DNA of 64,000 nucleotides from positions 79,112,001-79,176,000 of the forward strand of contig OZ360228.1 of NCBI GenBank assembly GCA_977017645.1. Direction: 5' to 3'. The notes beneath the pieces were generated by a model, which searched no databases, had not been told where the DNA came from, and worked only from the letters and a program-made list of their open reading frames with translations. The translations under genes were made by a program, and so were the position numbers. This DNA is from Torpedo marmorata. Lineage: Eukaryota. Below are positions 78 through 45,450 of the stretch, one piece after another (within the stretch, counting starts at the first letter, position 1; every line of letters begins with the position of its first letter).

Positions 78-2010
78 ACCCTGGCAAATTTCTACAGATG
101 TGTGGTGGAAAGCGTGCTGACCAGCTGCATCGCGGTCTGGTATGGGGACACCAATACCCCTGAGTGTAAAGCCCTCCAAAAGCTAGTGGACACAGCCCAG
201 GACATCACAGGCAAAACCCTCCCCAACATCGAGAACATCTACATGGAACGCTGCTGTTGGAGAGCAGCAGCAATCATCAAGGATCCACACCACCCAGCAC
301 ACGGTCTGTTCTTGCTTCTGCCATCAGGAATCAGAATCAGAATTTATTGTCATGAACAAGTCATGAAATTCAGTGTTTTGCAGCAGCATCATGGTGCAAA
401 CATTCATATTATAACCATCTTACGACATTACTATATAAAAAAAATATATAAATAGTAGTGCACGAAAGTAAGGCAGTGTCTTTGGTTCATTGATTATTCA
501 GGAATCTGATGGCAGTGGGGAAGAAGCTGTCCTTGTGCCGTTGAGTGCTCGACTTTAGGCTCCTGTACCTTTTTCCTGATAGTAGCAGAGTGAAGAGGGC
601 ATGGCCTGGGTGGTGAGGGTCTTTGAGGATAGAGGCTGCTTTTTTAAGACACCGCCTCGTGTAGATGTTCTCGATGGAGTGAAGTCTGGTGCCTGTGATG
701 TCACAGGCCGAGTTAACAACCCTCTGGAGTTTATTCTTGTCCTGAGAGTTGGCGCCTCCATACCAGGCAGTGATGCAACCAGCCAGAATGCTTTCCACGG
801 TACACCTGTAGAAGTTTACGAGAGTCTTCAGTGACATACCGAATCTCCTCAGACACCTCACAAAGTATAGCCGCTGGCGAGCCTTCTTTGTGATTGCATC
901 AACGTGGAGGTTCCAGGACAGATCCTCGGAGATGTTGACACCCAGGAATTTTATGTTCTTGACCCTCTCCACTACTGAACCCTCGATGAGGACTGGGTTG
1001 GGTTCCCCTGACTTCCTCCTGAAGTCCACAATCATCTCCTTCATTTTGCTGACGTTGAGCGCAAGATTGTTGTCATTACACCATTAAATGAGCTGATCTA
1101 TCTCCCTCCTGTACGCTTCCTCATTGTCGTTTGTGATTCTGCCGACAACTGTGGTGTCATCGGCAAACTTGTAGATGGCATTGGAATTGTGACTGGCCAC
1201 ACAGTCATGGGTGTATAACGAGTAGAGCAGTGGGCTAAGCACGCGTCCTTGGGGTGCGCCTGCGTTGATAATCAGTGAGGAGGAGACGTTGTTTCCAATT
1301 CGTATTGACTGTGGTCTTCCGATGAGAAAGTCAAGGATCCAGTTGCAGAGTGGGGTACAGAGGCCTAGAGTTTGGAGCTTCTTGACCAGCACTGAGGGAA
1401 TAATGGTATTGAAGGCCAAGCTGTAGTCGATGAAGAGCAGTCGTATGTATGAATTGCTGTTTTCGAGGTGATCCAGAGCTGAGTGGAGAGCCAACGATAT
1501 TGCACCTGCTGTGGAGCGATTGTGGCGATAGGTGAATTGTCGTGGGTCCAGATATTTGCTTAGGTATGTGTTAATTCTGGCCATGACCAGCCTCTCAAAG
1601 CATTTCATCACAGTAGAAGTTAGTGCTACTGGGCGGTAGTCGTTGAGGCAGCTCACACTGCTCTTCTTGGGTATCGGGATGATTGATGCCCTTTTGAAGA
1701 AGTATAGGTGCCACAAGACTAGCACCACCAGGTTCAGGAACAGCTGCTACCCCTCCACCATCAGACTCCTCTACAATAAACTCAATCAGGGACTCATTTA
1801 AGGTCTTTTACTTGTGCACTTTATTGTTTTTTTATCCTCTCTGTATTGCACAGTTTGCTTACATTTCTTAATTTGTTTACATGTGTACATTGTGTACAGT
1901 TTTTTTGCACTACCAATGAGTGGTAAGTCTGCCGCGCCCGCAGGAAAAAGGAATCTCAGGGTTGTATGTGATGTCATGTATGTACTCTGACAATAAATCT
2001 GAAATCTGAA
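78..2010 (+). mobile_element. 5'-truncated Rex/Babar-type LINE (subfamily 'B'), split by a second LINE (pieces about 78-330 and 1700-2010)
   Basis: ORF 45..455 carries C-terminal Rex-type motifs (NFYRCVVESVLT..WYG..DPHHPAH). The sequence resumes at 1700 (agtataggtgccacaagact), exactly as in the uninterrupted copy at 5111-5160. Tail tgacaataaa(tctgaaa)n. Confidence 0.85.
331..1699 (-). mobile_element. 5'-truncated Rex/Babar-type LINE (subfamily 'A'), RT region with stops, nested in the previous element
   Basis: ORFs 1084..1728 and 487..1044 have [30 protein letters not shown] and YKFADDT RT motifs plus the KKARQRLYF region. Minus-strand tail tgacaataaattctgattctga. Confidence 0.9.
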
Positions 2011-2551: not shown

Positions 2552-2797
2552 TAAAGGTAAAGGTTCCATTATTGTCACGTAATACTACATTTAGAATGTA
2601 ACATACATGAAATTCTTTAATTTTTGTCTACCGTAAGGCAGACAGAGGGTCACTACTTTGTCCAGCGCCCCTCACAGAAACCTACAGCACCTGGTGTTCC
2701 TAGGCGGTCTCCCCTCCAAGTACTGACGAGTCCTGTGCCTGCTTAGCTTCCGAGATCAGACAATCCCAGTCGTATTCAGGCTATTGGTGCTGTATAA
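2552..2797 (-). mobile_element. 5S rRNA-derived SINE (SINE3-type), copy 1
   Basis: The reverse complement of 2678-2797 aligns by eye to vertebrate 5S rRNA (gatctcggaagctaagcagg box A; gtacttggaggggagaccgcctaggaacaccaggtgctgtagg). It is followed by a ~125-bp non-5S tail ending tgacaataatggaa(ccttta)2. A near-identical second copy is at 24468. Confidence 0.85.
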
Positions 2798-4232: not shown

Positions 4233-5464
4233 AAAGATGCATAATTCAGGATGCTCTTTATCGACTACAGTTTGGCATTTAACACCATCATCCCCTCAAA
4301 ACTGATCAGCAAACTCCAAGACCTGGGAGTTAACACCCCACTGTGTAGTTGGATCATGGATTTCCTCACCTCCAGACCACAATCAGTGAAGATTGGTAAA
4401 AATTTCTCCTCCACAATCTCCATCAGTACCGGAGCACCACAGGGCTGCGTTCTTAGCCCCCTGCTCTACTCACTTTACACCTACGACTGTGTAGCTCGGT
4501 ACGACAATAACACCATCTATAAATTTGCCGACGATACCACAGTAATGGGTTGTATAAAGGAAGGGGATGAGTCAGCATACAGGATGGAGATTGAAAACTT
4601 GGCTGAATGGTGCACCAACAACAACCTTACACTCAATGTCACCAAAACTAAGGAGCTGATTGTTGACTTCAGGAAAGGAAAGCCAGAGGTATACAATCCA
4701 GTGATCATTGGGGGATCAGAGGTGGAGAGGGTGAGCAAATTTAGGTTCTTGAGAGTCACTATCTCGGAGGATCTTTCCTGGACCCAACACGCCAATGGCA
4801 TCGTGAAGAAAGCACGTCAGCGCCTCTACTTCCTCAGGAGTTTGCGGAGGTTTGGTATGACACCAGAAACACTGGCAAATTTCTACAGAGGTGTGGTGGA
4901 AAGTGTGCTGACCGCTGCATCATGGTCTGGTATGGGAACACTAATACCCCTGAGCATAAAGCCCTCCAAAAGGTAGTGGACACAGCCCAGAACATCACAG
5001 GCAAAACCCTCCCCACTATTGAGTATATCTATAGGGAATGCTGCCATCGGAGGGCAGCAGCAATCATCAAAGACCCACACCACCCAGCACATGCTCTGCT
5101 CTCGCTGCTGCCATCAGGAAAGAGGCATAGGTGCCACAAGACTCGCACCACCAGGTTCAGGAACAGCTGCTACCCCTCCACCATCAGACTCCTCAACAAC
5201 AAACTCAATCAGAGACTCATTTAAGGACTCTTACTTGTGCACTTTATTGATTTTCTTTTGTTCTCTCTGTATTGCACAGTAAGTTTGTTTACATTTGTTA
5301 TCTGTTTACAATTCTTTTGTTTGTTTCCATGTTTACGCTGTGTACAGTTTTTTTTTTGCACCACCAATAAGTGGTAATTCTGCCGTGCCCACAGGAAAAA
5401 GAAATATCAGGGTTGTATGTGATGTCATGTATGTTCTCTGACAATAAATCTGAAATCTGAAATC
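4233..5464 (+). mobile_element. 5'-truncated Rex/Babar-type LINE (subfamily 'B')
   Basis: ORFs 4251..4976 and 4922..5224 (frameshifted) with [10 protein letters not shown] and YKFADDT. The 3' tail matches that at 1750-2010. Confidence 0.9.
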
Positions 5465-5720: not shown

Positions 5721-6162
5721 CCTCCTTTGCTGCATTTCTGCTTGGCAGATTTAGACACGAATATATCTGAGCCATGAAGAACTGTCCGACATTGAAAATA
5801 GGATCATCCCTGACAACAGCTCAATTCTAGCATAAATTTGTGGCAAGTGGGATCAAACAAAACTCAGAAAATAGATGCATGCAAACATACTGTATGTAGG
5901 GGATTCACAAACCATAATGATGCACCATTCGACACACTGTGGACCTCATACCTAAAGGCCAGTAGACATTGCTGACAGTGAATGCAATCAAAACACTTGT
6001 GTTTGTTGCAATTACAGAAAGTACACTGCTGACTACCGTATATTTCGGCGTATAAGTCGACCCTTGAAACCCTCAAAAATGTCTCAAAAAATGGGGGTCG
6101 ACTTATACGCCGGATATACTTTTGAGACCTTAAATTCAGCTCAAAATCGAGTTCACGCCGAT

Positions 6163-6315
6163 CCGGCGTATAAGTCGACCCCTGAAAACACGATTCCGCG
6201 TATAAGTCGACCCCTGAAAACACGATTCCGCGTATAAGTCGACCCCTAAAAACACGATTCGGCGTATAAGTCGACCCCTGAAAACACGATTCGGCGTATA
6301 AGTCAACCCCTGAAA
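6163..6315. repeat. subterminal ~31-bp tandem repeat (about 5 units) of the TIR core motif
   Basis: Units cacgattc(c/g)gcgtataagtcgacccctgaaaa read directly. Confidence 0.9.
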
Positions 6316-6379
6316 AACCAAAAAAAAACCCGACTGCAACAAATTTTCATTGACATTTTAATTGAAAACAACAAGACAT

Positions 6380-7729
6380 TTAGAACCCTTCAAAATCACT
6401 TTCGCTATCATCGTCTGAGGCAAAGATCTCGGCAAGCACATCCGGGGTCTCACTGTTTAAACAGTCATCGTACGGGTCCCAGTCTGTATCTGATGAGGCG
6501 TCTTCAGCTTCGTCGTCAGTGTCCCACAATAAATCATCTTCCGTACCATCAATTGCACAAGAGATACCGCACTTTTTAAACGATTTTATTATAGTCTCTA
6601 CTTTCACTTTGTCCCATGCCTTGAGCACGAAGTCACACAGCACATCAAGCGATGCAGCACGCATTGCCCCGCCTTTTGTAAATGATTTTTCTGCACTCGA
6701 CATCCATGTATTCCACTCTTCACGCACGTGGTCTTTGAATGGCTTGTTCAAGCAGACATCGAGAGGTTGCAATATAGACGTCAAACCACCCGGGATAACC
6801 GCCATGTGAGTATTATGTTGTGCTAATGTACTTTTAGTCTTCTCAGTTAAGTGGCTACGAAACATATCCCAGACCAGCAAACTCCGTTCCTTGCGTAAAC
6901 CGCCTGGCCGCCTGTTCCACACATTGTCTATCCATAGTTTTACACCATTTTCATCCATCCATCCTTTTTCATGAAAATGTACAAAAATACCTGCAGGGAA
7001 TTTTATTTTAGGTTTAAATTTGCGTTTGAAGATTACCATGGGTCTTAACTTTGTCCCGTCGGCCATGCACGATAACACCACGGTAAACCTGGTCCTTTCA
7101 TGTCCTGTACTCCTCATTTGCACAGTTTTCACACCTTTCCATTCCACTGTTCTATTGCCTATCATGTCAAAATTCATGGGGGTTTCGTCCATGTTTCCAA
7201 TATTTGCCATTGCAAACTTGTGTTTCTTCCGGTTACGTAAAATAAACTGGTGAAAACTTACAACTTTATGATCAAGATCTTTTGGTAGTTTCTGAGCAAT
7301 TTTAGTTTTTTGTCGTAATACCAGATTTTTCCTGTTCATAAAACGGTTGCACCAGCCTACTGAAGCTTCAAAATCATTACTGAGTTCTGGGTGCGACTTT
7401 GCCCAGTTCAGTGCAAATGTCCTTATTTTATTTCGGGTGACTATGTAGCAATCTTGCCTCTGTTCACGTACCCATGCTGCTACATGATTTTCCAACTCTG
7501 GCCAACGAGTGATTCCTCTTCTCATGGAACATTGCCTTTTTGGTATTTTTCTTAAAGTCTCTTCTTTCTTCCTCCAATCTCTTACCAACTTCTCATATAT
7601 ACCAAATTTTCTTGCAGCAGCACAGTTGTTGGTTTTCTTTGCCATTTCTACTACTTTCAATTTAAAACTCGCCTCATACTTTCGTCGTTTCAATTGAGCC
7701 TTCAATGGAGCCTCCATGATAACAATCAC
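6380..7729 (-). CDS. pogo-family transposase, 449 aa (Brinker-like DBD, CENP-B/Tc5 HTH, DDE_1, acidic tail)
   Basis: Motifs YEASFKLKVV..AARKFG, ASVGWCNRFMNRKNL, NMDETP, LLVWD and QPLDVCLNKPFK. There are 35 residues between the 2nd and 3rd catalytic Asp. No stops or frameshifts. Confidence 0.93.
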   Translation of the reverse strand: MIVIMEAPLKAQLKRRKYEASFKLKVVEMAKKTNNCAAARKFGIYEKLVRDWRKKEETLRKIPKRQCSMRRGITRWPELENHVAAWVREQRQDCYIVTRNKIRTFALNWAKSHPELSNDFEASVGWCNRFMNRKNLVLRQKTKIAQKLPKDLDHKVVSFHQFILRNRKKHKFAMANIGNMDETPMNFDMIGNRTVEWKGVKTVQMRSTGHERTRFTVVLSCMADGTKLRPMVIFKRKFKPKIKFPAGIFVHFHEKGWMDENGVKLWIDNVWNRRPGGLRKERSLLVWDMFRSHLTEKTKSTLAQHNTHMAVIPGGLTSILQPLDVCLNKPFKDHVREEWNTWMSSAEKSFTKGGAMRAASLDVLCDFVLKAWDKVKVETIIKSFKKCGISCAIDGTEDDLLWDTDDEAEDASSDTDWDPYDDCLNSETPDVLAEIFASDDDSESDFEGF

Positions 7730-7739
7730 CTCCAGCCAA

Positions 7740-8065
7740 CGCCCAGCAGCTCAATGATCGCGATCGTTATGGGTCGACCTATACGCCGGTCACCGCCCAG
7801 CAGCTCAATGATCGCGATCGTTATGGGTCGACCTATACGCCGGTCACCGCCCAGCAGCTTAATGATCGCGATCGTTATGGGTCGATCTATACGCCAGTCA
7901 ACGCCCAGCAGCTCAATGATCTCGAGCGGTGTGGGTCGATCTATACGTCATTCAACGGCCAGCAGCTCAATCATCGCGTTTTTTTAGGGGTCGACCTATA
8001 CGCCGGTCAACGCCTAGCAGCTCAATCATCGCGTTTTTTTAGGGTCGACTTATACGCCGGTCAAT
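7740..8065. repeat. subterminal 54-bp tandem repeat (about 6 units), each carrying the TIR core ggtcgac(c/t)tatacgcc
   Basis: Units begin at 7740, 7794, 7848, 7902, 7956 and 8011 (cgcccagcagctcaat...). Confidence 0.9.
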
Positions 8066-10756
8066 GCGCAACATCTCAGGCATCGAGATTTTTGGGGTCG
8101 ACTTATACGCCGGATATACCATAAAACCATTAAAATGAGGCTGAAAAAGGGGGGTCGACTTATCCGCCGGTCGACTTATACGCCGAAATATACGGTATGT
8201 AACTTGTAAACTAACTATGCTGCCAGTTCTTAATGTCAGTCTCTTGACGTGCTAAGCAACAATATAAACCAGGAAGAAGCACATAGGCATTCATTGTACA
8301 CAAGGGCAACATTTAACCATAAAACGTATTAATTATTGCTAGGTTCACCTGCTATCATATTTAATTCTGCTAAAATATAATTTCTCCAACAATAAATGTG
8401 ATAGAATTTGCCAAATTGACTGCAAAAAAGAAATCTGTATAAATTCTGTGATAGATCCTCTTAATGAAGAATTAAATGGCTAACTAGCCAAAGCCATATG
8501 TGATGGAAAAAAAGTGACATTTTTTCGTTATTGTACCATGCTCATACAAACAAAAAATATTTTAGAAGTGCTAAAGGTCCTGTGAACAGATAAATAAGTG
8601 CAGATAAACATTTCAAGATTGGGAAGCAAAGTCTATAAATGGAATCGAAGGTAGGAGCAACCTTTAACAAATTTCACCATAAATCACTGGCTTCTGGAGC
8701 TGCAGATCAAGTCGCAATTCATAAGACTTGTGCGATGTTAAACTAAGATACCATTCAAAGTTAACATGCTCTGAGTTAAATACAGACCATGCAATTAGAT
8801 CATTTGCCTAACTATATTTTATAATTTTTTTGCATTGAAACATAAAAGCTAATGAATATTATAATATTTTTCATTTAAAAGTAAACTATTCAAGAACTCT
8901 GCCTTCTGTTTTACAATCATGGCGACTATTGACATTGGTAAATAATGTAAGTAAATGACTGAATAAGGGTTCTCACAATTAAAATTTTGGAGATCTATAA
9001 ATGTAGGGTATAAGGCATTTCGGACTTGGAGTTTAATCACCCATATGCCTGAGCTGTGTGTTGTGTTATATGTTACACGTCACATTCTTATTCTCTGAGC
9101 TTTATTTTGAAGAATTTACCACCTTAAGTAAATTTTTATTTAAATATATCAACCCATTTGACATTTTATTCACTAGTTACAATGGAAAATATGAATTGTA
9201 AGAATGGTAAATTGTGCTTGTCATTATTGTTTCATGATCTGTAACACCAGGGTAATCCATTCCATGAGGATAGCAAGCTACAATTTAAAAAAAATCTGCA
9301 TGTGCCTTTGTTCATTGTCAACTATAAATACATGGATAGCCAAGCTCATGTAAAGGCCTTGAATTTCTGCCACATTGATCTTGGTGATGTCAAAGGAACA
9401 GATGCCATACGTATATACATTTGAAGGAAAGATCGACAATATGTCACGGTATAAAGCAAAACCATATGTAGGATGGATTATACATCAATGCAATTATGAT
9501 AGCATCAACCAGACAGCTGTTCTTCTCCAATAATGATAAATGATAAAGCGGAATGCTATTTCCCTAAAATAAGTAATCTTCACATAAACCAACATAATTT
9601 GTAAAAGTGTTTATCGTAAATTAGTTCACTTGAAATGTGCAAGTTTCTATGTCTAGCTCATTAAAGTAAATTGAAGCAAAACACTCATTTTAAATCATAG
9701 AAATCATAGATAATTATGTATCAGATTAAGGAATCATACAATGTTTTATGTGTGAACTAATTATCACTATATGACCATTTAATGAATTATATGGCACTCC
9801 CACCCCAATTAAGCTGATGTAACAGCATTTAGCTTATTTTTCCATTTGAAAAAGCCAAGAGGAGATCATTGTTTTGGACCATCTTGTGTTTGCTGGATGA
9901 AGTCCCAATTACTTCTCGCTGTTTTATATGTGTATTACTGTTGCTATGGAGCTCACTAAAACTAGTTAAGCTGCATATAGCTCTCTGCTTGGAGAGAATG
10001 TTGTACAGTTCAAGAGTATGGCTGTTTGTGACTTTCATTACTTGGTTTAGAACAGAAGGATCAAGCAGTGTCAGCAATCCACCTGATTACATTCCAAGTC
10101 TCCATTATTGGATGTCGCATTAGTCACTTCATTTTCCACATTTCCTCATGTAAGTTAAGCCAGCTGTTTTGGAAAAGCATTTTGAATTGTTTCCATTAGG
10201 GTCTGCGTGGAGTGGCTTAATAATGGGGCCACCAACCTGAAAGCAGGTGGAGGGGGTCAAGTAAATAGAGCCCACATGACTTTTTAACATAACCAAAATA
10301 AAGAAAGGTTTTCTTTTCTCTCTTGGTCTGAATCCAGTTACTCGGAATGTGGCTGTTCAACAAAAAATATCACTTGAATGCTGATTAATTATATAGTTTT
10401 CGCAACTAATAAAACCCTCTATTTTGAACTAAAACAGAATTGCTTTTAAAATCTCCTTGGAGATTTTAATCATTATCACAGAATATAATCTAGAATGCTG
10501 CATGCCTCAATGGTGTCTCTCAGAATAAAAAGATGGTATTTTAATTGAATTCTGAGGAATTCTCTATTTCTTCGGAACCCAGTTTCATTTAAGAAATTTT
10601 GAATTATGATGTGCACAAATTACCTTGTAGATATGATGAAAATAGTTGCATCATAAGTTTGTGGTACATAGGGGTTTAATAACTCTGCTGCCAAGAAGAA
10701 AACACTGGATAATATAAACTTTCTGGTACATGTGATTTTATTTTTAAGCTGATCTT

Positions 10757-11723: not shown

Positions 11724-12566
11724 CAAGATTCAAGATTCAATTTATTGTCATAGTAATAAGACAGTGTCATATTCCATGAAATTTCTTTTTGCTTGCTGCA
11801 AGGCAGACAGATTCGCCACCGGCAGAAATTGCCTAAGCGCCTCTAACATTCCTTACAGTCAGAGAAAGAGAAGCAAAAGAGAGTCCCCCCAGAGTCATCG
11901 AGTGTCCGCAGATTCGCCTCCAGCGTTTCCACAGCCTCCGCAGCCACACAGAGTCCAGTCCAAACCATTGGCAACCCGAGCTCCAGATCCGAACCTCCGA
12001 CACGGTCAGGAACCCTTCGGCACCCCCTCGCATCCCGGTTCCGATACCTGGTACTCCTCCAGCTAGTTCGAGCCAGCCCGGCGTAAGTCTCGCAACAGCA
12101 GTCTCCAGCAGCCCACAGCCTCCGCGGGTTCCTTGCCTCCAGTCGCCAGCAGCCCGCCGCATGCACTGGTCCTTCAGCCTCAGAGCCCCTCACTGGTCCG
12201 CCGCCGTGGTCACCGTCCCGTGGGTCGTCTCCTCCGCTTCTCCTTCTCAGATGGGGGGGGGGGTGATCTTCCCGTCCTCTGGTGCCCTGCTCCAGTCCTC
12301 CGCTTCCCTGGAGTCTGCAGCCCCTCGTGGCTGCTGCCGGTTAAAAGGCACTGCCATCTTGGGCGCAGACCCCGCGGTCGCAGGATCTCAAATAAAACCA
12401 CTGTCGGCTCCCTCAATGGGCCGTTCAAAGCCCGTGCGGAGCCGATGGCAGTCGACTGATCGGCTGGACCCCGCGGGAGCGCTGCATCTCTGCTCCCTCG
12501 CTCCCCGCGGGTCCGCACCAGCGGCAGCGCTGCCGCTACAGCGGCTCCGGCAGCTCCACCATCTCT
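11724..12566 (-). mobile_element. non-autonomous retroelement: GC-rich head plus Rex-type 3' tail
   Basis: Minus-strand tail tgacaataaattgaatcttgaatcttg. The GC/CpG-rich body begins agatggtggagctgccggagccgc. No RT ORF. The tail is similar to that of the 5S SINE. Confidence 0.7.
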
Positions 12567-13531
12567 AAGATAACAACCAATAATAATTAATGAGTAAAAT
12601 TCATCAACAATAAAAATGATCCTCCATGTTTTGATTTGTATTTGTATCTAATATTACTATCCAGAAGCAATTACCGGTAATTAAAAAATAAGGTGAAAGG
12701 CTAAATTGAATGAGTAAAGGAATGTAATATGTACGAAGCCTTTGAGTTCATGTTGACTGGATGTCACAACAACAATCTAAGATTATAGAAAATGTCCTTC
12801 GAGTAATGTCAATCTGAGTACGCACAAGATTACGTACAGTGCAGTATCAATCTACCACTACATGCAATGTTGGATCAATCAGTGAAATGGACAACATAGA
12901 ACCAATCTCTGATGAAACTCTGACCATGGACCATCTGGAATCATATGTGACTATGAAGAGTGCAGGATCTATCTGCCACTGACAGGACTCCAGGTTCAAT
13001 CTGTGACAATGAATGCTGCAGGATAAATCTATCGCTATGTGCAGTGCAAGATCAATCTGTGACTATAGATCAATTTTCGAATGTGCACCATATAGGATCA
13101 ATCTGTGACTGTCAATAGTGTCAGCCCAATCTGTGACTTTAAACAACACAGCAACTATGCGTGATATAGGATTAACCTGTGTCTATGCATTTGGAAGGAT
13201 CAATCTTCTGCTATGAACAGCAATCATAAACCTGTAATAAAAACAGCATTCAAAACAGATCTATCTTTGATGCAGGATCAATCTGTGCCCAGGCATATTG
13301 TAAGTTCATTCAGTGGCTCTGACCTATGCAGGATGAATCTGCAAAAATTAGTAGTACAAGTCATTCTAGGACTATGTACTGTTCAGTAATAATCAGTGAT
13401 GGAGCACAATGCAGAATCAATCTATGATCATGTGCATTGTGGGATCAATTTGTGAGTATATGCTGTGTCAATTTGTGACCACATGCAACATAAGGTAAGT
13501 CTACAACTACGAACACTGTTGGTTCAATTTC

Positions 13532-13734
13532 AATTGGAACGAACTGCCATCTGATGTGGTAAATGCGGGGTCACTCTTAAGTTTTAAGAATAAATTGGAT
13601 AGATACATGGATGGGAGAGGTCTGGAGGGTTATGGAATGGGTGCAGGTCAGTGGGACTAGCGGAATGATGTTTCGGCACAGACTAGAAGGGCCGAATGGC
13701 TTTTTTCTGTGCTGTAGTATTCTATGTTCTGTTC
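13532..13734 (+). mobile_element. CR1 LINE 3'-end fragment
   Basis: tggaacgaactgcc...aaattggatagatacatggatggg...tattctatgttctgttct, the typical CR1 3' UTR and tail. Confidence 0.8.
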
Positions 13735-13949
13735 TAATTTATGACTATGTAGAGTCTAAAATTAATCTAACTCATGCAATGTAAGACCAATATGTGACCA
13801 TGAATACTGCAGGACCAAATTAAAGCCATATAAGGAATTTATGACAATGGAGCCTTTCGTAACTTTGTCCAGTGTAAGGTCAATCTGTGAGAATGAACAC
13901 AATACAATGTGGGATCAATCAGCAACTATGAATACTTCATCAATCTTGG

Positions 13950-14715
13950 CAATTACGAGTGGAGTGCCACACGGATCAGTGCTGGTGCCTCAAATATTAA
14001 TAATCCGTATTAATGACTTGGATGAAGGCTCCAACTGTATTGTACCCATATTTGCTGATGACGCAAAGGTAAGTGGGTTAGCAAATTGGGAGGAAGACGT
14101 AAGGAATCTGCAAAGGAATGTGGATGAATTGAGTGGACAAGAAGTTGGCAGTTGGAGCATCACATGTGAATATGTGAGGTTACCCACTTTAGAAGGAAAA
14201 ATGAAAAAGTAAATTATTATTTAAATGAAGTGATATTACAAAATATTGCAATACAAATAAATCGAAGGCATTGGAGGTACAGAGATGTCTCACTGGGCTC
14301 ATTGTGGTTATGAAGGGGCTGATGCATGAAGGGAGGTCTAACAGGTTGTAGTAATTGGACGAGAGAATGAAAGGCAATCTTATTGAAACAATTATGATTT
14401 TGAGGAGGATTGACAGGGGGATGCTGGGAGGATGTTTCACCTATTGAGGGCGGCTATAGTTGAAAAATCAGGGTTGCCCATTAAAGTGGAGATGAGGAGG
14501 ATTTTTTCTCTCAGAGGACTGTGGCTCTTTGGAATTTTATATCCCAGAAAATTGTTGAAGTTTCATCATTGAATATATTCAGAGCGAAGAATGACAGTCT
14601 TGAGGGTGTGAGGAGGGAAGCAGGAATTGGTGTTGGGACTAAGACTGGATCAACCACAATCTTACTGGATGGTGGAGCAGGCACAAGGGCCCATTTGGCT
14701 CCTCCTATACCTGTT
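13950..14715 (+). mobile_element. degenerate CR1 LINE fragment
   Basis: ORF 13841..14212 contains TSGVPHGSVL..INDLD..FADDAK, followed by a decayed CR1 3' end. Confidence 0.8.
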
Positions 14716-14869
14716 TCTTATATCTATTTGTTCATTGTAGAATCCATCTGAGACCATGAAGATTTTAACTTCAATATGTGATAATGAGCAGCATTGGATC
14801 AATCCATGACAATGAATGGCACACTGTGAGTCTGTGTCTGTGCCAAGCCTGATCTGCTCTTTAACAAGA

Positions 14870-15250
14870 ACATGTCTGAGTTTCTCCCACAATATCCTTT
14901 ACCTGTGCTATCCCAATTATACCCAAAAATGTATTTGAATGAAATCATCTCTGTTTTGAATGAAATCATTGACTGAGCTCAATGGTTCTCCAGAGTGGAA
15001 ATTTCTAAAGATTCACCACCCTATAATCAAAGACCCTTAAGAAATGTGAACCTTTCATTACAGTTATCTCTCATTCTTTTAAACACTTAAGGAAAGAGGC
15101 CTAATCTACTCAATTTCCATTCATATGGCAGACCCGCCATTTCTGGAACCAGTCCGGTAAATTTTCACTGCACTCCATCTACAGCAACTATAATTTTGTT
15201 GAGGTAAGGGGACTTGAATTGTACAGTACTCCAGGAGTGGTCTTATCCTG
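14870..15250 (-). mobile_element. degenerate CR1 3' fragment
   Basis: Similarity to the minus-strand CR1 3' regions (aaagattcaccaccct; gaattgtacagtactccagg). Confidence 0.6.
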
Positions 15251-16003
15251 GCCCAATATATCCATCTGTGACTATTACTGCCTCAGCATTAAACTGTGAG
15301 AAGGACATTGTGGAACATGGAGATGGACATTCTAGAGTCAATGAAAACTCTACCATGAATCTGAATACTATGAAATCAATCCACAACATTGTGTAGTTTT
15401 GGTTCAATCTGCCGCTAACTACATAATCTGCCACAATGAATTCTGTAAGGTTCGGTTGGTGACCATGCACATTATAAGAATAAGGTGAAACTAAGAATAC
15501 TGTAATATTAACCTCTTGCTGTGTACAGTGTGAGATCAATCTATGACCATTAATACTAAAGGACTAACCTGTGACAATGTACAGTGCAGGATCAATCCAT
15601 TACTATGAATAGTATGAGATCCATATGTGACATTGTAGACTCTGGACTGTGACTATGTATAATTTAGGGTCAATCTACAACAATGAATATTTTAGGATCA
15701 ATCTGTGATTGAATAATTCAGGCTCAGTCCATGTCAGTATTAATCTGGCTCTGAATACAAAAGGATTAATCTGGACTACAATTATTGTAGGATTAAGAGG
15801 TAACTGTATAGTTTAAGACCAATTAGCATTAATGCAAGATGTGGTATCAATCTTTAATTAAATATAATTTAGTATCAACCTTTGACTGTGAATGCTGTAG
15901 GATTAATTTATGATCATGGAATTAATCTGTGACCTTGTACTCAGTTGGATCTATCTGTGACAATATACATGGTGGGATTTTATCAATGACCATGTACTGT
16001 ATA

Positions 16004-16705
16004 AGAACATAGAACAGTACAGCACAGAATGGGCCCCTTGGCCCGCAATGTTGTGCCAACCTATATAAACCTACTCCACCGTCAATCCAACTCTTTCCAA
16101 TCTCACAGCCCATAGCCCTCCATTTTTCATACATCCTACCTAAAAGTCTTTTAAATGTCCCGATTGTTCCAGCCTCCACTACCAGCCCTGGCAATGCATT
16201 CCAGGCACGCACCACTCTCTGTGTTAAAAAAAAACGTACCTCTAACGTCTCCCTTAAACTTTCCTCTACTCACCTTAAACTGATGTCCTCTGGTATTGGC
16301 CATTGCCGCCCTGGGAAAAAGGTGCTGGCTGGTGACCTATCTATGCCTCTCATTTAGAGTCATTGAGTCATGCAGCATAGAAACAGGCCCTTCGGCTCTA
16401 CTTGCCCACTCCAACCAAAGTGTCCCATCTGCCTGCGTTTGACCCACATCCATGCATCCAAACCTATTCTGTCCATGATTCATCCAATCTTTTCTTAAAC
16501 ACAGCAATTGTACCTGCCTCAACCACCTCCTCTGGCAGCCCATTCCATGCACTCACCACCCTCTGTGTTAAAAAGCTACCGCTCAGGTACCTGTCTCCCA
16601 CCCTCACCTTAAACCTATGTCCTCTGGTTACCTATTCCCCTACCCAGGGCAAAAGACTCTCTGTGTTCATCCAATCTATTCCTCTCATGATTTTGTATAC
16701 CTCTA
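16004..16705 (-). mobile_element. two adjacent CR1 3'-end fragments (about 16004-16350 and 16355-16705)
   Basis: ORFs 15922..16215 (VRAWNALP.LVVEAGTIGTFKRLL) and 16337..16552. Tail agaacatagaacagtacagcac. Confidence 0.8.
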
Positions 16706-16853
16706 CGATCACTCTAAGATCAATCTGTAATGAAGAATACGGCAGGATCAATCTGTGAATATGAATACAAAAGGATGAGTCTGTGACTATTAATGTTATA
16801 CGATCCACTCATGACCACACATAGTTTAGGTTAAATTCACCACTGTGGGTACT

Positions 16854-19311
16854 ATAACCATATATAACCATATAACAATTACAGCACGGAAACAGGCCAT
16901 TAGGCCCTTCTAGTCCGCACCGAACCAAACACTCCTCTCTAGTCCCACCTACCTGCACCCTGCCCATAACCCTCCACCTCCTTCTCATCCATATACCTGT
17001 CCAACTTTTTCTTAAATAATAAAATTGACTCTGCCGCCACTACTTCTCCCGGAAGCTCATTCCACACCGCTACCACTCTCTGAGTAAAGAAGTTCCCCCT
17101 CATGTTACCTCTAAACCTCTGCCCCTTAACTCTTAACTCATGTCCTCTTGTTTCAATCTCTCCTACTCTTAACGGAAATAGTCTATCCACATCCACTCTG
17201 TTTATCCCTTTCATAATCTTAAATACCTCTATCAAATCCCCTCTCAACCTTCTACGCTCCAAAGAATAAAGACCTAATCTGCTCAATCTCTCCTTGTACT
17301 CTAGATGCTTAAACCCAGGTAACATTCTGGTAAATCTTCTCTGCACTCTCTCCACTCTGTTGATATCCTTCCTATAATTTGGCGACCAGAACTGCACACA
17401 GAACTCTAAATTAGGCCGCACCAATGCCTTATATAATCTCAACATCACTTCCCAACTCCTATATTCTATGCAATGATTGATAAAGGCCAGCATACTAAAA
17501 GCCTTCTTCACCACCCTATTCACATGAGTTTCTACCTTCAGGGAACGATGCACCGTTACTCCTAAATCTTTCTGCTCTTCTGTATTCATCAATGCTCTCC
17601 CATTTACTACATATGTCCTGTTCTGATTCTTCTTACCAAAATAAAGCACCTCACACTTATCAGCATTAAACTCCATTTGCCATTTTTCAGCCCACTTTTC
17701 TAAGCAGCCCAAATCTCTCTGCAATCCTTGAAAACCTTCTTCATTATCCACTATTCCACCTCTCTTAGTATCGTCTGCATATTTACTAATCCAGTTCACC
17801 ACCCCATCATCTAGATCATTAATGTATATAACGAACAACAATGGGCCCAATACAGATCCCTGAGGCACACCGCTGGTCACCGGCCTCCAACCTGACAGAC
17901 AATTATCCACTACCACTCTCTGGCCTCTCCCTTTCAGCCAATGTTCAATCCATTTGACTATCTCAAAATTTATACCTAAAGACTGCACCTTCCTAACTAA
18001 CCTTCCATGTGGTACCTTATCGAAGGCCTTACTGAAGTCCATATAGACAACATCCACCGCGCTACCCTCATCCACATTCCTAGTCACCTCTTCAAAAATT
18101 CAATCAGATTGGTCAAACAGGACCTTCTGCTCACAAATCCGTGTTGAGTGTTCCTGATCAGACCCTGTCTATCCAGATATTTATAAGTACTATCTCTAAG
18201 AAATTTCTCCATTAATTTACCTACCACAGACGTCAAACTTACAGGCCGATAATTGCCAGGCTTCCTCCTTGAACCCTTTTTAAATAACGGAACCACATGC
18301 GCAATACGCCAATCCTCCGGCACTATCCCCATCTCTAATGACATTTGGAAAATCACCGTCAGAGCCTCTGCTATTTCCTCCCTTATTTCTCTCAAGGTCC
18401 TGGGGAAGATCCCGTCGGGTCCCGGAGGCTTATCCACCTTTATATGCCTCAAAAGCCCTAACACTACATCTTTCGTAATCACTATATTCTCCATATTTAC
18501 CCAATTTTCTTTTTTTATCTCGCATATCCCAATATCCTTCTCCTTGGTGAATACCGAAGAAAAGAAACTGTTCAATATCTCCCCCATTTCTCTAGGCTCC
18601 ACACACAGTTTTCCGCTCTGATTCTCTAAGGGACCAATTTTGTCCCTCGCTTTCCTTTTACCATTAACGTATTTGTAGAAACCTTTTGGATTAATTTTCA
18701 CCCTGCTTGCTATAGTCTCCTCGTACCTTCTTTTAGCTTTCCTAATTCCTCTCTTAAGATTCCTTTTACATTCAATGTATTTTTCAAACATCTCCTTAAT
18801 TCCATGCTTCTTATACTTAATGTACGCCTCCCTTTTTTTTCGAACCAAGTTTCCAATATTCCTCGAAAACCACGGCTCTCTCAAACCTTTTGCCCCTCCT
18901 TTTAACCTAACAGGAACATAAAGCTTTTGCACTCTCAAAATCTGATCTTTAAAAGACTTCCACCTCTCTACTACATCCTGCCCATAAAACAAATTGTCCC
19001 AATGCACACCCTGTAAGTCCTTTCGCATCTCCTCAAATCTAGCTTTTCCCCAATCAAAAACCTCAACCCTTGGCCCTGACTTATCTCTTTCCATAATGAC
19101 ATTGAAGCTGATGGCATTATGATCACTGGACCCGAAGTGCTCGCCAACACAAACCTCCGTCACTTGACCTATCTCATTTGCCAACAGTAGATCTAACACT
19201 GCTCCTTCTCTGGTCGGTACCTCTACATATTGTTGTAAAAAACTATCCTGCACACATTTCACAAACTCCAACCCATCCAGCCCTTTCACAGAATGTGTTT
19301 CCCAATCTATA
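16854..19311 (-). mobile_element. 5'-truncated CR1 (HER1-like) LINE, ORF2 endonuclease end plus RT, one frameshift
   Basis: ORFs 18084..19289 (LDLLL..SDHN..PGPDGI..GNYRPVSLTS) and 16939..18087 (DFSKAFDKV, SGVPQGSVLGP, YADD). Flanking tgtgggtact (16844) and tgtggatact (19312) form a probable TSD or microhomology. Confidence 0.93.
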
Positions 19312-20564
19312 TGTGGATACTCTGGGATTAGTGACTATGAAGACTGTAGGAAAGGTCTGAGACTATTAATGTTGTAGGATCCATCTGCAACTATGCAGTG
19401 TCAGTTCATTCTGTGACAATGAACTGTATAAAATCAATCTGCCTCCCAGACCATGTTATGATAAATCTGTCACTATATGAGTGTAGGATTATTCAGTGCA
19501 GTGCAAAATGAGCTGATGAATCTGTCCAATAGAAATCACAGGACAATCAGTGATTATGAATACTTTAGGATCAATATATCACTATATATGTACAAAAGGA
19601 TATATCTGTGACTACGAATACTTGAGGACCTGAAACATTGAGCAGTGTAGAATGATTCTAATTTTTTCTGTGTGGGAACAATCTGCAATTCTGAATGCTC
19701 CAGGATCCACCTGACTATGAATAATGAAGAGTCAATTTGCAATGAAGTACGTTGTAGAATCAATGGGTAAGTATATGCTGTTCATGATCAATCTGTCACC
19801 ATAAATACTGTAAGATCAATCTGCTACTATGTCTACATATAGTGTAGGATTAACATATGATGACAAATAGCATTGGATCAGTGCTCTGTGATATCAGTCT
19901 GTGACTGTGTATGGTATAGTATGAGTCTTGGGCTATGAATATTTTGAGTTCATTATGATAAAAACCAGTTTTATTGGTCTGTGACCATGTACAATATAGA
20001 GTCGATCTGTGACTGTACAGCCTAGGATCGATTTGTGAGTTTGTTCAGTCCAGGGTCAAATTATGATGATAAATTCTGTAGAATCAGATCTGTTACTATG
20101 AACAGTGTAACTTCAACCTATCAAAATAAGGAGTGCAGGATCAATTGTTGAATTTATAAAGTGCAGGATGATTCTGTGACTGCATATTTTAAGATCTACC
20201 TGCAACTATAAATACTGTCAGACTAATCTGTGATCATGTCCAGTGTAGAATTAATTTGCAACCACATTAATGTGTTAGTATGTACAGTTTGGAATTAAAC
20301 TGTGACCATGCACAGTGTCATTATTTTTGTCAATGTACATTGCGAGATCAAGCTATGTCTATAAACAGCATTGGATCAATCCACAACCGTGTACATTATA
20401 GTTTCAATCTGTGGCTATGAGTAGCATAGCATCAATTTGTTACCATAAATAGTGTTGCATAAACCCAGACAATGCACACACCAGAAAACGAATATGATTC
20501 TATGTAGAGTGTGAATAGGTATAAAGAGGGATCAATCTGTGGCTGTGCTCATTCCAAATCAACC

Positions 20565-21984
20565 TCAGAATCAGAATTTATTGTCATGAACAAGTCATGA
20601 AATTCGGTGTTTTGCGGCAGCATCATAGTGCAAACATTCATATTATAACCATTCTAACGACATTACTATAAAATATATAAATAATAGTGCAGGAAAAGTA
20701 AGGCAGTGTCTTTGGTTCATTGATTATTCAGGAATCTGATGGCAGCGGGGAAGAAGCTGTCCTTGTGCCGTTGAGTGCTCGTCTTTAGGCTCCTGTACCT
20801 TTTTCCCGATGGAAGCAGAGTGAAGAGGGCATGGCCTGGGTGGTGGGGGGTCTCTGAGGATAGAGGCTGCTTTTTTAAGACACCGTCTCTTGTAGATGTC
20901 CTCGATGGAGTGAAGTCTGGTGCCTGTGATGTTACAGGCTGAGTTAACAACCCTCTGGAGTTTATTCTTGTCCTGAGAGTTGGCGCCTCCATACCAGGCA
21001 GTGATGCAACCAGCCAGAATGCTCTCCACGGTACACCTGTAGAAGTTTACGAGTGTTTTCGGTGACATACCGAATCTCCTCAAACACCTCACAAAGTATA
21101 GCTGCTGGTGAGCCTTCTTTGTGATTGCATCAATGTGGAGGCTCCAGGTCAGATCCTCGGAGATGTTGACACCCAGGAATTTTATGTTCTTGACCCTCTC
21201 CACTACTGAGCCCTCGATGAGGACTGAGTCGTGTTCCCCTGACTTCCTCCTGAAGTCCACAATCATCTCCTTGGTTTTGCTGACGTTGAGCGCAAGGTTG
21301 TTGTCGTTACACCATTCAACGAGCTGATCTATCTCCCTCCTGTACGCTTCCTCATTGCCGTTTGTGATTCTGCCGACAACTGTGGTGTCATCAGCAAACT
21401 TGTAGATGGCATTGGAATTGTGCCTGGCCACACAGTCATGGGTGTATAACGAGTAGAGCAGAGGGCTAAGCATGCATTCTTGGGGTGCACCTGTGTTGAT
21501 AATCGGTGAGGAGAAGACATTGTTTCCAATTCGTACTGACTGTGGTCTTCGGATGAGAAAGTCAAGGATCCAGTTGCAGATGTGGGTACAGAGGCCTAGA
21601 GTTTGTAGCTTCTTGACCAGCACTGAGGGAATAATGGTATTGAAGGCTGAGCTGTAGTCGATGAAGAGCAGCCGTATGTATGAATTGCTGTTTTCAAGGT
21701 GATCCAGAGCTGAGTGGAGAGCCAGCGATATTGCATCTGCTGTGGAGCGATTGTGACGATAGGCGAATTGCAGTGGGTCCAGATCTTTGCTTAGGTACAT
21801 GTTAATTCTGGCCATGACGAGCCTCTCAACGCATTTCATCACAGTAGAAGTTAGTGCTACTGGGCGGTAGTCGTTGAGGCAGCTCACACTACTCTTCTTG
21901 GGTACTGCGATGATTGATGCCCTTTTGAAGCAGGTGGGAATCTCTGACTGCCGCAATGAGAGGTTGAAAATATCCGTGAACACT
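20565..21984 (-). mobile_element. 5'-truncated Rex/Babar-type LINE (subfamily 'A')
   Basis: ORF 20724..22097 has RT motifs; the sequence is near-identical to 331-1699. Confidence 0.92.
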
Positions 21985-22023
21985 AATACAATGTAACCTG
22001 TAACAATGAATGCCATCAAAGGA

Positions 22024-22589
22024 ACATGGAAACAGAAAATAGATGCAGAAGTAGACCATTTGGCCCTTTCAGCTGCTCCATCATTTAATACAGTCATGGT
22101 TGATCTTCTAGCTTAATGCCATATTCCCACTCTCTCCACATACCTCCTGATGCTTTTGTATCTAGAGATCTATCTACTTCATTCTTAAATACAGTTAATG
22201 ATTTGGATGACTGCTTTCTGTTCTCATCTCAATCTTAAATTCATAGATTCATAGAAAACAGATGCAGGAGTCGGCCATCCAGCCTTTCGAGCCGGCTCCA
22301 CCATTCACTATGATAATGGATGATCATGCTTCCTCAGTGCCTAATTCCTGCTTTCTCTCCAAACCCCTTGGTTCCTTTGGCCAAAAGAGCCATATATACT
22401 TCCCTTTTGAATATATCTAATGAACTGGCCTCAACACCTTTCTGTGGTTTGGGAGGTCCCTAAGTTCATAACTCTCTGAATGAAGAAGATTCTCCTCATC
22501 TCAGTCCTAACTGGCTGACCCCTTATCCTTGGACTGTGACCCCTCATCCTGGACTTCCCCAACATCAGGAACATCCTTCCTGCATCTCA
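22024..22589 (-). mobile_element. two degenerate CR1 3' fragments
   Basis: gatgcaggagtcggccatccagcc-type tails and the gaagaagattctcctcatctcagtcct motif of CR1 3' ends. Confidence 0.65.
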
Positions 22590-23108
22590 ATCAAGTCAAG
22601 TCAAGTAAATTGTCATCTGATTGCATGAGTACAACAAAACAGCGTTCTCCAGTCCTCGGTACAAAACAGGCAGACGCACAACCAGACATAACACACATAC
22701 AGACAAAAAATACATATGCAGGACAAGTATTCATATATACAAATAAATAAATATCGTTTCATGAATATGAGAGTCTTGGATGGTTAGTGTGAGCAGTTCC
22801 TTTGGTCGTTCAGCATTCTCACTGCCCACAGGAAGAAGCTATTCCTCAGCCTGGTGGTGCTGGCTCTGATACTCCTGTATCTCTTTCCCGACAGGAACAG
22901 CTGAAAGATGTTGTGTGCAGGGTGGAAGGGGTCCTCAATGATTTTGCACACCCTCTTCAGACAACGATCCCGGTAGATCATGTTGATGGGGCGGGGGGGA
23001 GGGAGACTTTAGTGATCCTCTCTGCCATTCATGTTGCTGAGGAGGCCAACTAATGTTGTGTCATCTGCAAACTTGATGGCACTGTTGGAGCTGGATCTGG
23101 CGGTGCAG
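22590..23108 (-). mobile_element. Rex/Babar-type LINE 3' fragment (third subfamily, (caagt)n tail)
   Basis: ORF 22784..22981 (DPFHPAH..SGKRYRSI..RLRNSFF); gtcatctgcaaacttg encodes KFADD on the minus strand. Confidence 0.8.
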
Positions 23109-24467
23109 AATTTTATATGTCTCTATTAGATGCCCTCTCATTCTTCTAAATTCCAGTGAGAATAGTCCTAGTCTATCCAATTCCTCTTCATATGTTAGTC
23201 CTGCCATCACAGGAATCAGTCTGATGAACCTGTTCTGCACTCCCGTGCCATGCCTTACTATGTATCCTGAGACTGTGGCCCCTTATTCTGGACCCCCAAC
23301 CAGAAAAAATTTCCTTTTTTATCCAGTCTTTCTGTTGAGGTGGACCTTTGGTTGTTTGAAAACAAACACAAATACAGATGCACAAACAGATTTTTTAATC
23401 ACTTTGCAAAGCATGAGAACTCCTTTACAGCAAGAAGCGCTGCCACGAGTAGCAGTCTCGCCTCCAAGAGAGTCTGTCTTGTGGCTTACATATCATGTAT
23501 TTTATACCTTCAGACCCCTAGGTTTCTAGAACATTCAAACAGACCACTCCATATAAGTACATATTCCTTAGAATTCTCTTGGGATTTGTTAATCAGGGTC
23601 ATGTCCCTTACCCAATTGTTAATAGTCTTTTACAACCGTACCAAATAAGGAGGTTCTTATCTACTCCAGCTGATAACAAGAAAGAAAGGAATGCAGCCAG
23701 CTTTTCTTCCAGTCAACATTTTAAAACTTAAATTCTCATATCTAGCCCAGTCAGAATGTTGTATGTTTCAATGAGATCCCCTATCTTTCTTTTAACTCTC
23801 TCCCAATCTCTCTCATTCAAAAGTCTCGCCATTTCAGGAATCATTCCGGTGAACCTATGATGCATTCTCTCGATGACAGGTTTATCACTTCTTATGTTAG
23901 TAGACCAGAACTGTCATTAATCTGCAATTATGTACAATGCAGGATTTTTTTGTTATTCTGAATACTCCTGGATCAATCTTTAAGTATAATTGGAGTAGGG
24001 TATAACTGAGGCTATATTCAGCGCGAAATCGATATGTGATTGTATGGTGATGCATTAATCTGTGGCCATGAAAACCTAGATCAATCTGCAAATTAAGCAA
24101 TGTAAGAACAATGTGTGGCCCAGAACACTGAACAATCTGTTAATGTAGATTTATTTATTTGTCTGTATATATTTAAAATCACTATGAACAGCAGTCGATC
24201 AAGGTGCAACAACATACATTGTAGGATTAATCTGGAATAGCAAGTGCTGTAGAATAAATCACTGTTGAGTCATTATTAAAATGTAAATACCATATGATCA
24301 ATCCCTGTCTAAATAAAGTAGAATCAATCTGTGACTGTGTATCGTATTAATTAATTACCTGATTGTGTACAGCAGCAAATCAATTCTAATAATGCAGAAT
24401 ATCAAAAGGTAATGTTCAGTGTGAGATCAATGAACAACAATGAACATTCCAAACTTAAACAGCATGG

Positions 24468-24707
24468 TAAAGATAAAGGTTCCATTATTGTCACGTAATA
24501 CTACATTTAGAATGTAACATACATGAAATTCTCTAATTTTTGTCTACCGTAAGGCAGACAGAGAGTCGCTACTTTGTCCAGCGCCCCTCACAGAAACCTA
24601 CAGCACCTGGTGTTCCTAGGTGGTCTCCCCTCCAAGTACTGACCAGTCCTGTGCCTGCTTAGCTTCCGAGATCAGACAATCCCAGTCATATTCAGGCTAT
24701 TGGTGCT
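24468..24707 (-). mobile_element. 5S rRNA-derived SINE (SINE3-type), copy 2
   Basis: Near-identical to 2552-2790. It is inserted in the tail of a minus-strand CR1 (acagcatgg|SINE|ttcagcacgaattgtcc). Confidence 0.85.
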
Positions 24708-44567: not shown

Positions 44568-44948
<381 letters not shown>

Positions 44949-45278: not shown

Positions 45279-45450
45279 GAAAGTCTGCAGACACCGTGGT
45301 TGAAGTAAAAACACAATGCTGGAGAAACTCAGCAGGTCAAACAGTGTACAAAGATAAAGATACATAACCGACGTTTCCGGCTTGAGCATCTTTGCTATAT
45401 AAAGTACACTGTTTGACCTGCTGAGTTTCTCCAGCATTGTGTTTTACTTT
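45279..45450. mobile_element. palindromic Penelope-end-derived element in Otx2 intron 2
   Basis: The left arm matches the PLE end at 61455-61545. Arms 45303-45349 and 45404-45449 are inverted repeats. Confidence 0.85.

What the first reader, a model, noticed from the sequence alone, without database searches (positions are those of the whole stretch)
2552..2797. Short 5S-rRNA-headed SINE with a Rex/Babar-type LINE tail (two copies, 2552 and 24468)
Seen: two near-identical ~245-bp minus-strand elements, each a diverged full-length 5S head (box A intact, box C GGAGGGGAGACC) fused directly to a tail gaatttcatg...tgacaataa plus a short tandem repeat. That architecture matches the Rex-type LINE tails in this window (gaatttcatgacttgttcatgacaataaa). 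Both copies share the same departures from 5S, so this is a retroposed family, not two independent 5S pseudogenes. Known: 5S SINEs are rare (zebrafish SINE3, AmnSINE1, salmonid OS-SINE1), and those examples carry a central Deu domain, for which this element has no room. Inference: a possibly undescribed chondrichthyan SINE family mobilised by a Rex/Babar LINE.
Basis: partly seen in the sequence, partly recalled or inferred. Interest (0 to 1): 0.7.

Follow-up and report, generated by a model that had tools for sequence, protein, structure and literature searches.

The report
5S-headed jumping repeat, tRNA-headed twin
This is one copy of a short, young repeat with at least 8,885 copies in this large fish genome; it carries a piece of the 5S ribosomal RNA gene as its likely promoter, shares its folded tail with a sister repeat headed by a tRNA, and is probably copied by Rex1-type retrotransposons, a known kind of element for which I found no description in cartilaginous fish.

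Summary
Real. Both window copies (233/240 identical) belong to a dispersed 5S-headed SINE (SINE3): 8,885 exact head-tail junctions in the 6.2-Gb genome, roughly 30,000 copies by estimate, 2.7% from their majority sequence, often 5'-truncated, no long target-site duplications. The head matches the host 5S gene at 95/116, keeps the internal promoter and has lost the terminator. (1) The tail does not align with the cited Rex LINE tail (z about 0). It is colinear (85/112) with the 3' end of a protein-less ~850-bp family, also in the window (11724-12564), and shares only the end architecture with Rex LINEs. No autonomous partner was found. (2) 5S SINEs without a Deu domain are known (Ped-1, HaSE3, CoeSINE5). 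A sister family (about 800 exact junctions) puts a tRNA-Thr(UGU) head on the same tail. That head differs from the host gene at 2 sites against 21 for the 5S head, suggesting the tRNA head came later. No description found in 8 paper searches; Repbase, Dfam and SINEBase were not checkable. This scan noted the family twice before elsewhere in this genome.

The parts
2681..2794 (-). Copy 1: 5S rRNA-derived head (5S positions 4-117)
   Evidence: Rfam RF00001 43.8 bits; family majority 95/116 to the host 5S gene; coordinates
2734..2748 (-). Copy 1: box A of the internal type 1 Pol III promoter (numbering recalled from Xenopus 5S)
   Evidence: 13/15 to the host gene
2701..2718 (-). Copy 1: box C
   Evidence: 16/18 to the host gene
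2565..2680 (-). Copy 1: 116-nt tail, predicted three hairpins (2645-2673, 2625-2644, 2575-2612), ending TGACAATAA; shared with the tRNA-headed sister; homologous to the 3' end of family X
   Evidence: fold z -3.9; 85/112 to X majority
2552..2564 (-). Copy 1: terminal (ACCTTT)2 repeat; no target-site duplication
24597..24707 (-). Copy 2: 5S-derived head, 3 nt shorter at the 5' end
   Evidence: Rfam 41.5 bits
24481..24596 (-). Copy 2: tail
24466..24480 (-). Copy 2: terminal repeat, two units and a partial third
11724..12564 (-). Family X: ~850-bp GC-rich element with no reverse-transcriptase match, fixed 5' start and a Rex-type 3' end; its last ~115 nt are homologous to the SINE tail
331..1746 (-).
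   Evidence: RVT_1 and PF09004; z 0.5
4237..5461 (+). 5'-truncated Rex-type LINE, family B; the coding family whose tail is closest to the SINE tail, weakly
   Evidence: RVT_1 and PF09004; family B tails z 1.5-7.4

Best explanation
The element is a copy of a young, high-copy SINE made of a 5S rRNA-derived head joined to a 116-nt tail; it is likely transcribed by RNA polymerase III from the promoter inside the head and probably reverse-transcribed into new sites by a Rex1-clade LINE protein that would recognise the tail's predicted hairpins. Shown: a dispersed family, its head, tail, copy number, 5' truncations, the sister family, and homology of the tail to family X. Inferred: (a) Pol III reads through into the tail because the 5S T-run terminator is gone; (b) a Rex1-clade protein supplies reverse transcriptase in trans (about 0.8); (c) the tail was captured from the lineage of protein-less family X by a template switch (about 0.6); (d) a later switch at the same junction put a tRNA-Thr(UGU) head on the tail and founded the sister family (about 0.65).
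For: Family: 40 of 40 scored hits 98-100% identical, on 23 contigs, with unrelated flanks apart from one duplicated pair. Exact counts: 8,885 5S junctions, 25,093 3' ends, reversed-pattern controls 0. Promoter: positions 50-97 match the host gene at 43/48 against 33/46 upstream (Fisher p=0.037); no TTTT in either family majority, whereas the host gene is followed by a T run. Retroposition: 11 of 28 non-tRNA copies in a sample chosen by the 3' end are 5'-truncated; variable terminal repeat number. Tail: folds far better than shuffles (z -3.9, -3.7); a hairpin closing on TGA just before CAATAA and a short repeat is predicted in the SINE, X and Rex families A, B and C. SINE tail against X tails z 8.6-15.9, 85/112 to the X majority over the whole tail. 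X and Rex family B both start with an AA(A/G)ATGGCG motif. Sister: 860 non-5S junctions, 94 of the first 100 of one type; 27 of 30 fetched carry a tRNA-Thr-type head. Direction: tRNA head differs from host genes L278 and L286 at 2 sites, 5S head at 21 of 116 (p=0.001). The tRNA family carries T (21 of 24 scored copies) at a stem site where X and the 5S family (21 of 21 scored) have G. In contigs of coded organisms B and E two head sites are partly in the host-5S state, consistent with stepwise drift of an older head.
Against: No autonomous LINE with this 3' end: 0 of 30 loci chosen by the 3' end, 0 of 30 chosen by the middle hairpin (27 X-type, 3 SINE), 0 of 30 chosen at the junction, and none among the Rex tails mined from the fetched loci. 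No X copy is closer than 75% to the SINE tail and no X-headed intermediate was found, so the direct donor is unseen. Covariation across SINE and X tails is not clearly above shuffles (33 of 500; 96.5% of cells paired, mostly one-sided changes). Rex LINE tails themselves do not fold better than shuffles (z -0.2 to 1.8), and family D did not show the same terminal hairpin. X and Rex B 5' ends do not align beyond the start motif. The two families are equally far from their own majorities (2.7% each), so divergence does not order them. The 5S head could come from an unseen 5S gene class: only 47 genes of one array were scored. Rex1 assignment of the window LINEs rests on PF09004 as a marker (recalled) and on no room for an ORF1 in family B, not on a tree.
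Confidence: 0.62

Rival explanations
1. The tail came directly from the 3' UTR of a rare or extinct autonomous Rex1 LINE; the SINE and family X are independent parasites of that LINE, and X is a cousin, not the donor lineage.
For: SINE-X identity is only 65-75% per copy; no X-headed intermediate in 30 of 243 junction variants; my sampling would miss a LINE making up under about 10% of the 3' ends (0 of 30).
Against: No such LINE among the Rex tails mined from 0.5-0.9 Mb of fetched loci; 27 of 30 loci with the same middle hairpin are X-type.
Confidence: 0.27
2. Order reversed: the tRNA-Thr SINE arose first and the 5S head replaced it.
For: Equal divergence. In contigs of organism E the tail is about ten times deeper than the 5S head and 16 contigs run into the tRNA head at the junction (summed contig depth is a rough measure, and the run may be RNA). 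A minor tRNA-headed subfamily carries a tail variant also seen in organisms B and E.
Against: 2 against 21 head departures from the host genes; a derived stem-weakening T in the tRNA family.
Confidence: 0.3
3. The SINE is mobilised by a non-Rex LINE (CR1 or L2), which also lack long TSDs and end in short repeats.
For: No Rex LINE shares the tail sequence; other RT-coding LINE fragments are present in the window (CR1-like by recall); vertebrate SINE3s are said to use the CR1 clade (PMC7245038 passage).
Against: TGACAATAA plus a 5-7-nt repeat ends the SINE, X and the Rex-type LINEs alike; weak but repeated alignment to Rex family B tails (z 1.5-7.4).
Confidence: 0.1
4. Independent 5S pseudogenes or segmental duplicates.
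For: None beyond the 5S similarity; a few fetched pairs are local duplicates (L015/L016; L296/L297 and L308/L309).
Against: 21 of 21 shared departures; 8,885 identical junctions; unrelated flanks.
Confidence: 0.01

Closest known systems
CoeSINE5 / CoeSINE4 of coelacanth (PMC5786205, passages)
   Same: A 5S-headed SINE of 225 nt with a tRNA-headed sister on a similar 3' part and no central conserved domain described.
   Different: Their 3' parts come from 5' and 3' UTRs of RTE LINEs; here the tail is Rex-type and only a 3' end.
HaSE3 / HaSE1 (moth) and Ped-1 / Ped-2 (springhare) (PMC5786205 passages; PMC3747384 table)
   Same: 5S- and tRNA-headed pairs sharing a LINE-derived tail.
   Different: RTE or BovB partners; other hosts.
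DeuSINEs with 5S heads: zebrafish SINE3, AmnSINE1, OS-SINE1 (PMC3747384 table)
   Same: 5S head with internal promoter; fish hosts. OS-SINE1 pairs with the LINE RSg-1, which I recall as Rex1/Babar-type (not verified; listing did not settle it); if so it is the closest head-tail precedent.
   Different: They carry a central Deu domain; SINE3 and AmnSINE1 pair with CR1-4_DR. This element has no body.
SINE2-5_NV of Nematostella (PMC3747384 table)
   Same: A SINE paired with a Rex1 LINE (Rex1-24_NV).
   Different: tRNA head, cnidarian.
Described chondrichthyan SINEs: HE1, SacSINE1, SINE2-1_CM (PMC3747384 table; PMC5499810 passages)
   Same: Presumed host group.
   Different: All listed with tRNA heads and HER1 or CR1 partners; none with a 5S head.

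Membership tests
SINE (SINEBase definition, PMC3531059 passage) | Short (<1 kb), interspersed, non-tandem repeat | tested here: met
   About 243 bp; hits on 23 contigs with unrelated flanks
SINE (SINEBase definition) | [quoted passage not shown] | tested here: met
   8,885 exact junctions
SINE (SINEBase definition) | At least 60% identity to tRNA, 5S or 7SL over 60 nt or more | tested here: met
   95/116 to the host 5S gene
SINE (SINEBase definition) | Distinct from RNA pseudogenes: extra sequence and shared diagnostic changes | tested here: met
   116-nt tail; 21 of 21 shared departures
SINE3 | 5S-derived head keeping box A, intermediate element and box C | tested here: met
   13/15, 5/6, 16/18 to the host gene; box numbering recalled
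SINE3 | Transcribed by RNA polymerase III from the internal promoter | not testable with these tools
   Needs Pol III/TFIIIA assays or raw small-RNA reads
DeuSINE | Central Deu domain between head and tail | tested here: not met
   The whole non-head part aligns end to end with the 3' end of family X; no Deu sequence was on hand for a direct comparison
Rex1/Babar-mobilised SINE | 3' end shared in sequence with an autonomous Rex1 LINE of the same genome | tested here: inconclusive
   Family A z about 0, family B z 1.5-7.4; no identical partner in samples; no genome-wide LINE library
Rex1/Babar-mobilised SINE | Conserved 3' region followed by a short oligonucleotide repeat, as in Rex1 (PMC6274825 passage) | tested here: met
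   TGACAATAA plus a short repeat in the SINE, X and Rex families A-C
Rex1/Babar-mobilised SINE | Trans-mobilisation by a Rex1 protein | not testable with these tools
   Needs a cell-culture retrotransposition assay
SINE built on a bipartite non-autonomous LINE (PMC5786205) | LINE-derived part traceable to a protein-less LINE derivative | tested here: inconclusive
   Tail homologous to X, but X's parent LINE was not found and its 5' part aligns to Rex B only in the start motif
SINE built on a bipartite non-autonomous LINE (PMC5786205) | SINE holds both a LINE 5' part and a LINE 3' part | tested here: not met
   Only the last ~115 nt of X are present
Any described Repbase, Dfam or SINEBase family | Full-length match to a deposited consensus | not testable with these tools

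The most novel reading that the evidence does not exclude
An undescribed cartilaginous-fish SINE3 born when a 5S head was grafted onto the tail of a protein-less Rex1 parasite, and which later passed that tail to a tRNA-Thr head at the same junction. That would be a three-step relay (Rex1, non-coding parasite, 5S SINE, tRNA SINE) with every stage still present in one genome, extending the bipartite-LINE route of SINE birth to the Rex1 clade and documenting a 5S-to-tRNA promoter swap.
Probability: 0.3. Interest if true: 0.6.

Novelty: new variant of a known kind. Interest (0 to 1): 0.42.

Why it matters
5S-derived SINEs are rare (2.3% of SINEBase families per PMC10946416), and none from cartilaginous fish appears in the tables I saw. 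Two equally young families with the same tail and different Pol III promoters (type 1 and type 2) are a natural comparison of how promoter type affects SINE success; here the 5S form outnumbers the tRNA form about ten to one. The tail offers a short structured substrate to test how Rex1 proteins recognise RNA. Tens of thousands of young insertions shared by several related organisms would also be presence/absence markers for phylogeny. It is still ordinary selfish DNA of a known class, with no sign of a host function.

Tried and rejected
Tail from the cited Rex family A: rejected. Target-site duplications: 1 of 132 copies has 7 nt or more (shuffled pairs 13 of 3,925); 16 of 132 have 5 nt or more against 222 of 3,925 (p=0.004), so at most short microhomology (a looser test was similar). 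An older subfamily at L218: it is a young copy with an internal deletion. L226 as a full-length Rex B with an X-like 5' UTR: rejected, the X-like piece is a separate fragment and the true Rex B 5' end differs. Partner LINE by the tail query, by 3'-end, hairpin and junction patterns, by PF09004 and in 200 kb of evenly picked DNA: none found. Expression: no RNA holder listed; X7 and X12 are only guessed to be RNA. The head ratio in other organisms stays open: one search gave no data. PDB search of the LINE protein gave only distant R2 and L1 matches. Clade of RSg-1 not settled.

Full report
Observation. Two minus-strand elements lie at 2552-2794 and 24466-24707 and are identical at 233 of 240 positions. 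Rfam scores their 5' halves as 5S rRNA at 43.8 and 41.5 bits, cut-off 38. The host 5S genes sit in a tandem array on contig C25 (47 scored). The family majority matches that gene at 95 of 116 positions, starting at 5S position 4, and both window copies share all 21 departures. The promoter region (positions 50-97, numbering recalled) is better kept than the upstream part: 43/48 against 33/46 (p=0.037). The same pattern is described for insect SINE3s (PMC10886601, passage). The host gene is followed by a T run; the element has no TTTT, so read-through is inferred.

Copy number and age. A DNA search gave 1,448 candidates; all 40 scored were 98-100% identical, on 23 contigs, with unrelated flanks except one duplicated pair. 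Exact counts in 6.2 Gb: 8,885 for the 5S-tail junction and 25,093 for the 3' end, controls 0. Of the first 30 3' ends, 25 carry a whole or partial 5S head, 2 a tRNA head and 3 only tail; none is a LINE. Seven of those 25 hold the exact junction, which gives a rough 32,000 copies. Twenty evenly picked 10-kb stretches held 3 copies. Copies are 2.7% from their majority (25 copies). Of 28 non-tRNA copies 17 start within the first 6 nt and 11 are 5'-truncated; long TSDs are absent (1 of 132 with 7 nt or more).

The sister family. At L004 a tRNA-Thr(UGU) sequence is joined to the same tail start. A pattern excluding the 5S junction found 860 places, 94 of the first 100 of one type; 27 of 30 fetched have a tRNA-Thr-type head and ARAGORN of 30 as tRNA genes. 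The two tails differ at 3 sites and one gap. The tRNA family is also 2.7% from its majority. Two host tRNA-Thr(UGU) genes with T-run terminators were among 18 hits (L278, L286). The SINE head differs from them at 2 sites, a minor subfamily at 1, against 21 for the 5S head (p=0.001). At one stem site the tRNA family has T (21 of 24 scored, 6 unscored) where X and the 5S family (21 of 21 scored, 7 unscored) have G. Both points suggest the 5S head is older. Equal divergence and a possible unseen 5S class argue for caution.

The tail. The window's LINE fragments encode RVT_1 plus PF09004, which I recall as a Rex1/Babar marker. Family B starts only about 490 nt upstream of a point inside its endonuclease region, leaving no room for an ORF1, as reported for Rex1 (PMC13343379, passage). 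One apparent strong Rex hit (L049) was a SINE inserted next to a LINE and was set aside. The strong match is family X, an ~850-bp GC-rich element with a fixed start, present in the window at 11724-12564 and as several copies in the 200-kb sample: z 8.6-15.9, 85 of 112 to the majority of 34 X tails, 65-75% per copy. The SINE tail folds into three hairpins (z -3.9 and -3.7), also predicted on an alignment of 4 SINE and 20 X tails. There 96.5% of cells pair, but covariation is not clearly above shuffles (33 of 500). A terminal hairpin closing on TGA before CAATAA and a short repeat is predicted in the SINE, X and Rex A, B and C, not clearly in D; the LINE tails do not beat their shuffles. X and Rex B begin with the same short motif but do not align further. 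No autonomous partner or X-headed intermediate was found in three 30-locus samples.

Other organisms. Twenty public runs from 10 studies and 8 coded organisms hold the element or part of it; one may be the source. Four were laid. All four cover head and tail. Organisms B and E carry head variants nearer the host 5S gene at two sites; D and F have the form seen here. In E, 16 contigs leave the junction into the tRNA head. The family therefore appears older than the split of these organisms (inference). The host taxon was not tested. A ray is likely, from the richness in Rex1 (rays have among the highest coverage, PMC13343379) and from earlier AI notes.

Mechanism. Shown: anatomy, dispersal, truncation, sister family, homology to X. 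Inferred: Pol III transcription from the 5S promoter, recognition of the structured tail by a Rex1-clade protein, target-primed reverse transcription from the terminal repeat (established LINE/SINE biology), birth by template switch onto an X-lineage tail as in the model of PMC5786205 (passage), and a later tRNA head swap.

Comparison with print. Eight searches (listings and abstract starts) showed no description of this family. Passages read: PMC3747384 (table rows), PMC5786205, PMC5499810, PMC3531059, PMC13343379, PMC10946416 (74, including its table of rDNA-derived elements), PMC10886601, PMC7245038, bioRxiv 10.1101/2025.06.08.657570 (no hits for Rex or SINEs), PMC6274825. No paper was read whole. 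No supplements were opened; SINEBase's SINE table and Repbase or Dfam entries could hold this family. 5S SINEs without Deu, and 5S/tRNA sister pairs, are known (CoeSINE4/5, HaSE1/3, Ped-1/2). PMC7245038 says vertebrate SINE3s use the CR1 clade, and PMC5786205 found only RTE and Vingi contributing bipartite parts to SINEs, so a Rex-type tail from a protein-less family would be a variant. OS-SINE1 with RSg-1 may be a precedent (clade recalled, unverified).

Earlier notes of this scan. The same family was noted twice on other pieces of this genome, once with the tRNA sister, and X-like families in other genomes. These are unchecked AI notes; I had found the sister and X before looking. What this report adds is the link of the tail to X, the negative test of the cited LINE, and evidence on the order of the heads.

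Verdict. A real, probably undescribed SINE3 family with a head-swapped twin; partner LINE inferred, not found. New variant of a known kind; interest 0.42.

Noticed in passing
window 11724-12564 (-); L002, L017, L102, L108, L120, L207, L218: Family X: abundant ~850-bp GC-rich protein-less retroposon with a fixed 5' start motif like Rex1 family B and a Rex-type 3' end; young and old subfamilies; parent LINE not found.
   Followed up: partly
L004:1382-1750: A tRNA-headed copy cut off inside the middle hairpin is fused directly to a full 5S-headed copy, a possible template-switch chimera of the two sister RNAs.
   Followed up: partly
L304, L312, L314, L218, L114, L117: Recurrent internal deletions near the head-tail junction; three of them join two short CTGT repeats on either side of it.
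   Followed up: no
window 44568-46271 (+): Two exons of an Otx-type homeobox gene (otx2-like by recall).
   Followed up: no
window 5864-8124: Pogo/Tigger-type DNA transposon with a 456-aa open frame (DDE_1, BrkDBD, HTH_Tnp_Tc5) flanked by 32-bp and 54-bp tandem repeats.
   Followed up: no
window 12800-24450: Degenerate 28-bp satellite-like arrays; copy 2 of the SINE sits at the edge of one.
   Followed up: no
window 16939-19334 (-), 24966-26758 (+): Long RT-coding LINE fragments, CR1-like by recall.
   Followed up: no
window 61751-62446 (-): 231-aa frame that looks like the C-terminal endonuclease part of a Penelope-like element (recall; no Pfam hit).
   Followed up: no
window 45308-45445: Perfect 42-bp inverted repeat inside the homeobox gene's intron, made of two arms of a common repeat.
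   Followed up: no
G000:C25:86.20-86.56 Mb (L151-L170): Host 5S rDNA array with about 3.2-3.8-kb spacing.
   Followed up: partly
L171-L200: At least four Rex-type LINE families (A-D) with different tails coexist; PF09004 gave 268,505 first-look candidates.
   Followed up: partly
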